Source: Escherichia coli O127:H6 str. E2348/69 (GTDB taxonomy: Bacteria; Pseudomonadota; Gammaproteobacteria; Enterobacterales; Enterobacteriaceae). From it: DNA of 64,000 nucleotides. Positions 14,241 through 14,521 of the stretch are shown here, one piece after another. How positions within the stretch are numbered: position 1 is the stretch's first letter; every line of letters begins with the position of its first letter. A program made the translations under genes and the position numbers. The notes under the pieces are model-generated. The model was not told where the DNA came from, did not search any database, and saw nothing but the letters and a program-made list of their open reading frames with translations. The stretch is taken from NCBI RefSeq assembly GCF_000026545.1, contig NC_011601.1. One strand, written 5' to 3'.

Positions 14241-14521
14241 AGTAATAATGCCGGTATCAGTTTTTATCATCACTCTGTTTGCTGTTTAACCAGACTGGTG
14301 TGATTACTGATGCAGTGAAGACCTTCCCGCATCCTGACTCACACAGCGATCGACCCTTTGTGTCCTGCCCTGGACCTGTCGGTTGCCGGAAGCGCCTTCA
14401 TGCGAGGCGTCTCCTCACCGATGCGCGTGACTCAAGAAGGGCCTGACGGTTTGTCTCGTTACTGTCCTGTCCGGGTTATCTGTCTGGAGATTCAACTCTG
14501 TTTCCTCACAGGAGCTCTGTT
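14241..14521 (+). ncRNA. Candidate IS110-family bridge (guide) RNA in the left-end non-coding region
   Basis: Inference only: about 280 bp of non-coding sequence 5' of the IS110 recombinase, where the IS110-subgroup bridge RNA is encoded in IS621-like elements; no structure was computed. Confidence 0.35.

What the first reader, a model, noticed from the sequence alone, without database searches (positions are those of the whole stretch)
14241..14521. Candidate bridge RNA in the 280-bp left end of the nested IS110 element
IS110-subgroup elements such as IS621 encode a structured bridge RNA in the long non-coding left end, upstream of the recombinase. Its two loops base-pair with target and donor DNA. 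This element has about 280 bp of non-coding sequence before its recombinase, so the target-binding loop would be expected to complement the IS3 orfB sequence around the insertion point (…cacagtgat / caaggggtgg…). If so, this is a naturally IS3-programmed bridge RNA.
Basis: inference. Interest (0 to 1): 0.55.

Follow-up and report, generated by a model that had tools for sequence, protein, structure and literature searches.

The report
ISEc21 guide RNA gene, already known

Summary
Window 14241-15614 is a copy of ISEc21 (IS110 family) that is 100% identical to the reference. It is inserted precisely, with no duplication, into orfB of IS1397 at the codons His-Ser-Asp|Gln-Gly. The 281-bp left end (14241-14521) is non-coding.

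An alignment of 54 non-redundant relatives gives strong covariation for four elements: a 5' stem-loop, a target-binding stem-loop, a small hairpin and a donor-binding stem-loop. Both binding stem-loops have the same layout, GAC-13 nt-GAC...GUC-13 nt-GUC.

- **Target loop:** UCACACAGCGAUC (14339-14351) matches the left flank plus one base at 9 of 10 positions. CCCUGG (14368-14373) complements T|CAAGG at 5 of 6.
- **Donor loop:** AGAAGGGC (14435-14442) equals the right-end sequence. UUACUG (14459-14464) complements C|AGTAA.

It is also already published: Siddiquee et al. 2024 (PMC11187229) showed for ISEc21 itself that this region yields a transposase-bound, reprogrammable "seekRNA" that targets the second Asp codon of the DDE motif in IS3-family transposase genes.

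My additions are inferences only. The donor loop lies outside the published RNA (bases 8-179). A handshake base covaries with the donor end. Many relatives, but not ISEc21, carry a second, alternative left-target guide in the 5' stem-loop.

The parts
14232..14240 (+). [quoted passage not shown] Its bottom strand is bound by the left-target guide.
   Evidence: The published target is described in PMC11187229.
14241..15614 (+). ISEc21, an IS110-family element of 1374 bp, inserted in the same orientation as IS1397 orfB.
   Evidence: 100% identity to ISEc21 in E2348/69; precise empty site.
14241..14521 (+). Non-coding left end, the gene for the guide RNA (bridge RNA, or seekRNA). This is the finding's interval.
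14241..14245 (+). Right-donor sequence AGTAA at the element's left tip, recognised by the right-donor guide.
   Evidence: alignment columns 1-5 pair with columns 244-248 in 99.6% of cells, with pair types AU:36 and CG:18 at one position.
14244..14249 (+). AATAAT, the -10 half of the promoter that forms only when the right end is joined to the left end in the circle. The -35 half is TTGACT at 15595-15600, and the spacer is 17 nt.
   Evidence: Read directly from the sequence. A junction promoter is reported in PMC11187229 Fig. 6a. No sigma-70 site is found in the integrated context.
14254..14313 (+). 5' stem-loop. In ISEc21 it is only a degenerate relic of the second-guide module seen in relatives.
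   Evidence: (helix 2).
14315..14401 (+). Target-binding stem-loop with a long covarying outer stem closed by GAC/GUC. It contains the published 58-nt seekRNA (element bases 89-147, window 14329-14387).
   Evidence: helices 3-5; 18 of 21 outer-stem pairs show compensatory change. One search gives the published coordinates.
14339..14351 (+). 5' loop of the target-binding stem-loop, UCACACAGCGAUC. The left-target guide is 14342-14351, CACAGCGAUC. [quoted passage not shown] It matches 9 of 10 positions here.
   Evidence: (cognate 6.92 against permuted 6.13 +/- 0.13 identities).
14365..14377 (+). 3' loop of the target-binding stem-loop, CUGCCCUGGACCU. The right-target guide CCCUGG (14368-14373) pairs with the top strand at positions -1 to +5 (T|CAAGG: one wobble and one mismatch). 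GAC (14373-14375) is complementary to the donor end GTC and is the candidate handshake guide.
   Evidence: position +2 paired in 96% against 80% expected; handshake covariation, Fisher p = 9e-6.
14404..14416 (+). Small linker hairpin, GAGG...CCUC.
   Evidence: helix 6 (96.6% paired; 3 pairs with compensatory change).
14418..14482 (+). Predicted donor-binding stem-loop. It lies outside the published long seekRNA (element bases 8-179).
   Evidence: (helices 7-9), and for the published coordinates.
14432..14444 (+). 5' loop of the donor-binding stem-loop, UCAAGAAGGGCCU. The left-donor guide AGAAGGGC (14435-14442) is identical to right-end positions -11 to -4.
   Evidence: Both sequences are invariant in all relatives.
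14456..14468 (+). 3' loop of the donor-binding stem-loop, UCGUUACUGUCCU. The right-donor guide UUACUG (14459-14464) complements C|AGTAA across the circle junction. GUC (14464-14466) is complementary to the target's GAY (the Asp codon).
14522..15598 (+). tnpEc21, a DEDD/IS110-type recombinase of 358 aa.
15599..15614 (+). Short right end. It contains the left-donor sequence AGAAGGGC (15604-15611) and the terminal GTC. The -35 hexamer TTGACT (15595-15600) overlaps the stop codon.
15615..15619 (+). Right target CAAGG (Gln-Gly codons of IS1397 orfB).

Best explanation
The left end of this ISEc21 copy encodes the element's guide RNA. The RNA has a 5' stem-loop, a target-binding stem-loop and, further 3', a donor-binding stem-loop.

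[quoted passage not shown] **Donor recognition.** In the donor loop, AGAAGGGC and UUACUG recognise the joined right and left ends of the element.

**Strand exchange.** The DEDD recombinase bound to the two loops exchanges top strands immediately 3' of GAY in the target and of GTC in the donor. The element therefore lands between the Asp and Gln codons, in the orientation of the host gene, with no duplication.

**Basis of each step.**
- Shown by published experiment on this same element: the RNA from bases 8-179 is needed for circle formation and transposition, it co-purifies with the transposase, 58 nt (bases 89-147) suffice in a reporter assay, and it can be reprogrammed.
- Shown here: the structure, the guide-flank matches, and the covariation in relatives.
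- Inferred: the donor loop is part of the working RNA, the handshake pairing, and the cleavage positions (by analogy with IS621).
For: - **Identity.** The element is 100% identical to ISEc21. The protein equals the published TnpEc21 and the left end equals the published non-coding region apart from text-conversion noise.
- **Precise insertion.**
- **Structure.** RNAalifold plus pair counts on 54 sequences give 92% of cells paired against 33-40% for slid controls, and 289 compensatory cells against 100 +/- 13 in shuffles, reached by 0 of 500 shuffles.
- **Left-target guide.** Cognate flanks give 6.92 identities against 6.13 +/- 0.13 for permuted flanks, with a maximum of 6.51 in 2000 permutations. 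An unbiased scan places the best flank match at the guide position.
- **Right-target guide.** Position +2 is paired in 96% against 80% expected.
- **Right-donor guide.** AGTAA/UUACU changes to AGTCA/UGACU in 18 sequences and to AGCAA/UUGCU in one, with no broken pair.
- **Left-donor guide.** AGAAGGGC is invariant in both the loop and the right end.
- **Handshake.** Right-end position -3 is A when the loop base is U in 7 of 9 elements, and G when it is not U in 41 of 43.
- **Chance control for this copy.** 18 of 5000 shuffles (target pair) and 1 of 5000 (donor pair).
- **Conserved target across relatives.** 80 relatives from many Proteobacteria sit at the same (H/N)(S/T)D|(Q/R/K)G codons in the same orientation.
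Against: - The single-sequence fold is not significantly stable (z = -1.8) and does not show the two loops. The consensus structure costs about 21 kcal/mol more than the MFE in this copy.
- Rfam 15 has no match.
- The predicted donor loop lies outside the RNA that the published experiments found sufficient (bases 8-179, and 58 nt in the reporter). Its use is therefore unproven for ISEc21.
- The covariation between the right-donor guide and the left tip could equally reflect an RNA-RNA helix in read-through transcripts. RNAalifold drew it that way.
- The left-donor guide is offset by 2 nt relative to the left-target guide and stops 3 nt short of the junction.
- Donor and target share no core dinucleotide (target AY, donor TC).
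- No promoter is detectable in the integrated context, and no expression data could be examined here.
- The permutation and Fisher tests are not corrected for phylogeny.
Confidence: 0.9

Rival explanations
1. Only the target-binding part is a guide RNA, that is, the published 58-74-nt seekRNA. On this reading the conserved block at 14418-14482 is not a donor-binding loop. It would instead be part of the tnp 5' UTR, for example a long-range RNA helix with the left tip, a recombinase-binding site on the DNA, or a translational control element.
For: Published experiments found that bases 8-179 complement a deletion of the non-coding region, and that 58 nt suffice in a mini-IS reporter when the donor is flanked by target sequence. 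RNAalifold draws columns 1-5 with 244-248 as an intramolecular helix.
Against: - The block has the same GAC-13-GAC...GUC-13-GUC layout as the target loop, with covarying inner and outer stems (helices 7-9).
- AGAAGGGC has the same sense as the right end, so it cannot pair with right-end RNA. It can only pair with the bottom DNA strand.
- A target-loop base covaries with the donor end. This makes sense only if the donor and the target loop meet in one complex.
- The preprint 10.1101/2025.10.25.684509 reports that target-loop-only RNA supports only a partial, much less efficient direct-transfer route, and that full-length RNA is needed for circle formation and integration in two other IS110 elements.
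- In the published complementation experiment, the donor plasmid with the 20-150 deletion still carried bases 151-280.
Confidence: 0.12
2. The left end is an ordinary promoter and leader region, and its matches to the flanks and ends are coincidental.
For: The MFE z-score is only -1.8 and there is no Rfam match.
Against: Shuffle controls, covariation with flanks and ends in 54-59 relatives, and published RNA-protein co-purification and reprogramming for this element.
Confidence: 0.02
3. The region encodes a small protein, the 80-aa ORF at 14358-14600.
For: The ORF exists mechanically.
Against: It starts with TTG and overlaps tnp out of frame. Relatives differ there by insertions and deletions of non-triplet length in the hairpin loops, and by paired compensatory substitutions typical of RNA stems.
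Confidence: 0.01

Closest known systems
ISEc21 seekRNA (Siddiquee, Pong, Hall & Ataide 2024, Nat Commun 15:5235, PMC11187229)
   Same: It is the same element: 100% DNA identity and an identical transposase. [quoted passage not shown] The window's genomic context occurs whole only in O127:H6 records, including LT903847.1, the accession the authors took ISEc21 from.
   Different: The paper describes a 74-nt or 58-nt RNA (bases 89-147) and a long form (8-179). That covers only what is here called the target-binding stem-loop. The paper does not describe a donor-binding loop. The host IS in this window is IS1397, whereas the paper names ISCfr6, ISEc92 and ISEc93 as examples.
IS621 bridge RNA (Durrant et al. 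2024, PMC11208160; Hiraizumi et al. 2024, PMC11208158)
   Same: - It is encoded in the long left end, upstream of a DEDD recombinase.
- It has a 5' stem-loop followed by a target loop and a donor loop.
[quoted passage not shown] - Handshake bases are complementary to the partner DNA.
- A promoter is reconstituted at the right-end/left-end junction.
   Different: - It belongs to a different branch of the family (recombinases of 315-330 aa against 345-385 aa, per PMC11187229).
- ISEc21 has no CT core shared by donor and target: the target has AY and the donor has TC.
- ISEc21 has symmetrical 13 x 13-nt loops framed by GAC/GUC.
- The left-donor guide is offset by 2 nt.
- The target is a protein-coding motif in another IS rather than REP-like sequences.
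CazIS110-1 bridge RNA and target-loop-only RNA (preprint 10.1101/2025.10.25.684509)
   Same: It provides a framework in which an abundant target-loop-only RNA and a full-length two-loop RNA coexist. The authors interpret the seekRNA of Siddiquee et al. as target-loop-only RNA.
   Different: It is a different element and host, and nothing was tested on ISEc21.
IS1111-group seekRNA / bridge RNA (ISEc11, ISKpn4, ISPa11)
   Same: The same recombinase family and the same principle of an RNA guide.
   Different: In that group the RNA is encoded downstream of tnp, the elements have long sub-terminal inverted repeats, and the order of top- and bottom-strand matches is reversed (PMC11187229).

Membership tests
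ISEc21 (ISfinder name) and its published seekRNA | Sequence identity of the element, the transposase and the non-coding region with the reference. | tested here: met
   (1374/1374 identity to E2348/69 copies annotated as ISEc21). (the protein is identical to the published FASTA, and the non-coding region is identical apart from text-conversion noise in the supplement).
ISEc21 (ISfinder name) and its published seekRNA | Insertion at the second Asp codon of the DDE motif of an IS3-family transposase gene, without duplication. | tested here: met
   The host is IS1397, and the empty site is contiguous in uninterrupted copies.
ISEc21 (ISfinder name) and its published seekRNA | The RNA is transcribed, bound by the transposase and needed for movement. 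| not testable with these tools
   Published for this element (PMC11187229). No expression data are available here.
IS110-family bridge RNA (two-loop architecture) | Encoded in the long non-coding left end, upstream of a DEDD/IS110 recombinase, with a short right end. | tested here: met
   the left end is 281 bp and the right end is 16 bp.
IS110-family bridge RNA (two-loop architecture) | [quoted passage not shown] | tested here: met
   (92% paired; 37 pairs with compensatory change; 0 of 500 shuffles reach the observed values).
IS110-family bridge RNA (two-loop architecture) | In the first loop, the 5' side matches the left target (pairing with the bottom strand) and the 3' side complements the right target (top strand). 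| tested here: met
IS110-family bridge RNA (two-loop architecture) | In the second loop, the 5' side matches the right end and the 3' side complements the left tip of the element. | tested here: met
   The function of this loop in ISEc21 is not shown experimentally.
IS110-family bridge RNA (two-loop architecture) | Handshake bases in each loop are complementary to the partner DNA. | tested here: met
   for the target loop against the donor end. The donor-loop GUC against the target GAY is invariant, so complementarity is seen but there is no covariation.
IS110-family bridge RNA (two-loop architecture) | A promoter is reconstituted across the right-end/left-end junction. | tested here: inconclusive
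   TTGACT-17 nt-AATAAT was read directly from the joined ends. The scanning tool cannot take a synthetic junction. The promoter is reported in PMC11187229 Fig. 6a.
IS621-like subgroup | An identical core dinucleotide (CT) in donor and target, present at both junctions. | tested here: not met
   The left junction is GAY|AGTAA and the right junction is GCRTC|(C/A)NNGG. The target has AY and the donor has TC, and there is no repeat. ISEc21 works like IS621 but is not filed in that subgroup.
Rfam families | A match to any curated covariance model. | tested here: not met
   no match at E <= 1 in window 10000-20000.

The most novel reading that the evidence does not exclude
In many relatives of ISEc21, the 5' stem-loop of the guide RNA is a complete second 5' half of the target-binding loop. 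It has its own outer-stem strand, then GAC, then a 13-nt guide loop, then GAC.

This second half can pair with the single shared 3' half in place of the proximal 5' half. One RNA would then have two interchangeable left-target guides. The guides typically read CACAGCGAU against CACUCNGAU, or AACACCGAU against CACUCCGAU. One element could thereby hit transposase genes that spell His-Ser-Asp with AGY or TCN serine codons, or that carry Asn-Thr-Asp.

ISEc21 itself, the element in the window, keeps only a degenerate relic of this module. In addition, the working ISEc21 RNA would extend to about base 242 and include a donor-binding loop missed by the published seekRNA mapping.
Probability: 0.4. Interest if true: 0.6.

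Novelty: already known. Interest (0 to 1): 0.2.

Why it matters
For the window itself, this is a textbook case of a guide-RNA-directed insertion sequence nested in another insertion sequence. It confirms that a reader can recognise such elements from sequence alone, but it adds nothing to what was published in 2024.

Three points from the comparative work could matter to specialists:

1. ISEc21, the model for the "seekRNA" view, has a well-conserved donor-binding loop and a handshake base. This supports the view that seekRNA and bridge RNA are the same device, and that the published RNA is its target half.
2. This clade recognises a protein-coding motif, (H/N)(S/T)D|(Q/R)G of IS3-type transposases, across many Proteobacteria. 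It is therefore a parasite of other insertion sequences.
3. Relatives seem to carry two alternative left guides. If real, this would be a natural way to widen the target range of a bridge recombinase.

Tried and rejected
- **Rfam.** A search of 10000-20000 at E <= 1 found nothing.
- **Single-sequence folding.** The z-score was -1.8, and the MFE pairs the guides into stems. It is not informative for a protein- and DNA-bound RNA.
- **First candidate for the right-target guide.** I first considered ACCCUU (element bases 113-118, complementary to AAGGGT of the right flank). I set it aside because it lies in the length-variable hairpin loop that is not conserved in relatives. CCNNGG in the 3' loop, in contrast, covaries with the flank. 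I could not see the paper's figure to learn which match its authors marked.
- **First donor candidates.** GGCGUC at bases 166-171 and AUUACUGA at bases 63-70 were set aside because they are not conserved in relatives.
- **Alternative pairings.** I tested pairing of alignment columns 173-176 with 194-197 as an extension of the linker hairpin. It was less supported than the longer target-loop outer stem, showing few compensatory changes. A GUCC/GGAC hairpin within the 3' target loop showed only one-sided changes, some of them disruptive.
- **Shared core dinucleotide.** None was found at the two junctions.
- **Promoter and terminator scan of the integrated context.** No sites were found.
- **Other target sites in the window.** No site has 2 or fewer mismatches to CACAGCGATCAGGG.
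- **Covariance model.** I did not build one, because the pair counts already answered the structural question.

Full report
**What is there.** Window 14241-15614 (+ strand) is a 1374-bp IS110-family element. It has a 281-bp non-coding left end (14241-14521), a 358-aa recombinase gene (14522-15598) and a 16-bp right end. The protein scores 198 bits on NCBIfam NF033542, 'IS110 family RNA-guided transposase'. The whole element is 100% identical to copies annotated as ISEc21 in E. coli E2348/69 and other strains. 497 of 5426 complete E. coli genomes hold a near-full-length copy, nearly always lying under an IS3-type transposase annotation.

The element interrupts orfB of an IS3-family element that sits between yjbB and pepE. 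That host element is IS1397. The joined flanks are contiguous at 600/600 identity in uninterrupted IS1397 copies. The insertion is therefore precise: CACAGTGAT|CAAGGGTGG, between the Asp and Gln codons of His-Ser-Asp-Gln-Gly, with no duplication. The complete context yjbB-IS1397::ISEc21 is found only in O127:H6 (E2348/69 lineage) records.

**It is already known.** Siddiquee et al. 2024 (PMC11187229) used ISEc21 as their IS110-type model.
- They showed circle formation with a promoter created at the joined ends.
- They showed that the upstream non-coding region (deletion of bases 20-150, complemented by bases 8-179) is needed for circle formation and transposition.
- They sequenced a transposase-bound 74-nt RNA, showed that 58 nt (bases 89-147) suffice in a reporter, and reprogrammed it.

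Their transposase sequence equals the window's ORF. Their non-coding-region sequence equals 14241-14521 apart from text-conversion noise.

**Independent check by comparison.** A scan of one genome per species returned 80 relatives at 68-99% protein identity, from Enterobacteria, Pseudomonas, Halomonas, Burkholderiales, Rhodobacterales, Rhizobiales and others. Almost all sit at the same place and in the same orientation. The left flank ends in (CAC/CAT/AAC/AAT)(AGY/TCN/ACN)GAY. The right flank begins with CAG, CAA, CGN, AGR or AAG followed by GG. This spells (H/N)(S/T)D|(Q/R/K)G of IS3-type transposases.

I aligned 54 non-redundant left ends (A1). RNAalifold and explicit pair counts support four elements.
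- A 5' stem-loop.
- A target-binding stem-loop. Its outer stem has about 21 pairs, of which 18 show compensatory changes.
- A short linker hairpin.
- A donor-binding stem-loop, whose inner and outer stems both covary.

Overall, 92% of cells are paired against 33-40% when the 3' partners are slid. There are 289 compensatory cells against 100 +/- 13 in shuffles, a value reached by 0 of 500 shuffles. Both binding modules have the same layout: outer stem, GAC, 13-nt loop, GAC, variable hairpin, GUC, 13-nt loop, GUC, outer stem.

**Guides, in window coordinates.**
- *Target loop, 5' side (14339-14351), UCACACAGCGAUC.* Bases 14342-14351 are identical to flank positions -9 to +1 except at -4 (C against T). 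The RNA therefore pairs with the bottom strand.
- *Target loop, 3' side (14365-14377), CUGCCCUGGACCU.* CCCUGG pairs with the top strand T|CAAGG, with one G.T wobble and one C.A mismatch.
- *Fit to the consensus.* The guides fit CACAGCGAT|CAGGGC perfectly, as at loci L003 and L004. IS1397 is thus a two-mismatch target, and both mismatches fall at synonymous third-codon positions.
- *Left-guide covariation.* Across 59 element/site pairs, the left guide matches its own flank better than permuted flanks: 6.92 against 6.13 +/- 0.13 identities, with a maximum of 6.51 in 2000 permutations.
- *Right-guide covariation.* The variable right-guide base tracks flank position +2, paired in 96% against 80% expected.
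- *Donor loop, 5' side (14432-14444).* It contains AGAAGGGC, identical to right-end positions -11 to -4. Both are invariant in all relatives.
- *Donor loop, 3' side (14456-14468).* It contains UUACUG, complementary to C|AGTAA across the circle junction. This pairing covaries cleanly: AGTAA/UUACU in 36 sequences, AGTCA/UGACU in 18 and AGCAA/UUGCU in one, with 99.6% of cells paired.
- *Chance control for this copy.* Shuffles of the left end reach the target pair in 18 of 5000 and the donor pair in 1 of 5000.

**Mechanism.** The IS621 structures (PMC11208158) show top strands cut just 3' of the core, right guides that then pair with the incoming core, and adjacent handshake bases. Mapped onto ISEc21, the cut falls at the element boundary. 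The core positions are -2 and -1, reading AY in the target and TC in the donor.

In the target loop, GAC (14373-14375) is complementary to the donor end GTC. In the donor loop, GUC (14464-14466) is complementary to the target GAY.

The first of these covaries. Elements whose right end is GCATC have GAU in the loop in 7 of 9 cases, while those with GCGTC have a non-U base in 41 of 43 (Fisher p = 9e-6, not corrected for phylogeny). A target-loop base that tracks the donor end is hard to explain unless donor and target meet on this RNA.

Because the cores differ at their first position, there is no duplicated dinucleotide. The junctions retain the top-strand information. This agrees with the 'no duplication' finding of Siddiquee et al. 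and with the top-strand bias reported for CazIS110-1.

No sigma-70 site exists in the integrated context. The joined ends read TTGACT-17 nt-AATAAT (15595-15600 and 14244-14249). The element always lies in the sense orientation of the host transposase gene, so read-through from IS1397 could also supply RNA. This last point is an inference.

[quoted passage not shown] The donor-binding stem-loop mapped here (bases 178-242, window 14418-14482) lies outside them.

The preprint 10.1101/2025.10.25.684509 treats the seekRNA as 'TBL-only RNA'. It reports that such RNA supports only a partial direct-transfer route, whereas circle formation and integration need the full two-loop RNA in two other IS110 elements.

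I therefore think the ISEc21 RNA is a two-loop bridge RNA and that the published seekRNA is its target half. My confidence in the donor-loop part is about 0.75. This is inferred from conservation and covariation, not shown. The covariation between the right-donor guide and the left tip could also be read as an RNA-RNA helix in read-through transcripts.

**Side observation in relatives, not in the window's element.** In many relatives the 5' stem-loop carries a second copy of the motif GAC-13 nt-GAC, and its loop looks like a left-target guide.
- An unbiased scan for the 9-mer equal to the left flank places the best hit either at the target-loop guide or at this 5' module.
- Among 34 sites in elements that have both, the 5' module is the better match in 19, the target-loop guide in 14, and they tie in one. 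The better of the two gives 7.68 of 9 identities against 6.66 +/- 0.16 for permuted flanks, reached by 0 of 5000 permutations.
- The strand upstream of the module is complementary to, and covaries with, the 3' outer strand of the target loop. 85% of cells are paired against 32-47% for slid controls. There are 62 compensatory cells against 24.7 +/- 4.2, reached by 0 of 500 shuffles.
- Constrained folds give similar energies for the two conformers.
- Elements with identical transposase and identical guides occupy both site classes. One example is three copies in a single Pseudomonas genome, at CATTCCGAT, CACTCGGAT and CACAGCGAC.
- I found no description of this in the searchable literature.

ISEc21 keeps only a degenerate relic of the module.

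**Verdict.** Novelty: already known. Interest is low for the finding as given. The donor-loop mapping, the handshake covariation and the possible second guide are modest additions that need experiments.

Noticed in passing
Relatives L016, L025, L026-L028, L044, L046, L049, L051, L056, L061, L064, L069, L070, L081-L100 (left-end bases about 25-60); relic in window 14264-14300: The 5' stem-loop of many ISEc21 relatives carries a second GAC-13 nt-GAC module whose loop is a left-target-guide look-alike (CACAGCGAU, AACACCGAU or AAUACUGAU). Its upstream strand can pair with the 3' half of the target loop. Insertion sites match one guide or the other, even for identical elements within one genome. 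The window's ISEc21 has only a degenerate relic.
   Followed up: partly
L035, L036, L038 (flanks of the element); L058 (right flank); L013 (left flank): Some relatives are not in a transposase gene. In L035, L036 and L038 the element sits in TAGAAGGGGTC|AGTAAAAGAATG, a site that mimics the element's own right-end/left-end junction. In L058 the right flank begins with a left-end-like AGTCAGATCATC. In L013 the left flank is CAGAAGGGCCTG, which resembles the left-donor-guide region. These may be insertions into donor-like sites or remnants of tandem copies.
   Followed up: no
window 13100-14240 and 15615-15930: The host element is IS1397 (IS3 family), lying in the yjbB-pepE intergenic region. More than 1700 E. 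coli genomes carry uninterrupted copies with the same empty target site, so unoccupied ISEc21 targets are common. The IS1397 site differs from the guide-perfect sequence at two synonymous positions.
   Followed up: partly
L013, L014, L063 (Paraburkholderia and Caballeronia relatives): These relatives lack the usual 16-bp right end straight after the stop codon. They have a longer, GC-rich 3' region instead, so the right-end architecture is not uniform in the clade.
   Followed up: no
L030, L043, L062, L071 (contigs of 1373-1403 bp): Several assemblies contain a contig that consists of the element alone. This is the usual sign of a multi-copy repeat collapsed by the assembler. It confirms an element length of about 1.37-1.40 kb across the clade.
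   Followed up: no
window 14480-14521: Between the predicted donor loop and the start codon, the MFE fold draws a hairpin that partly covers the ACAGGAG ribosome-binding region. This could be translational control of tnp. It was not examined in relatives.
   Followed up: no
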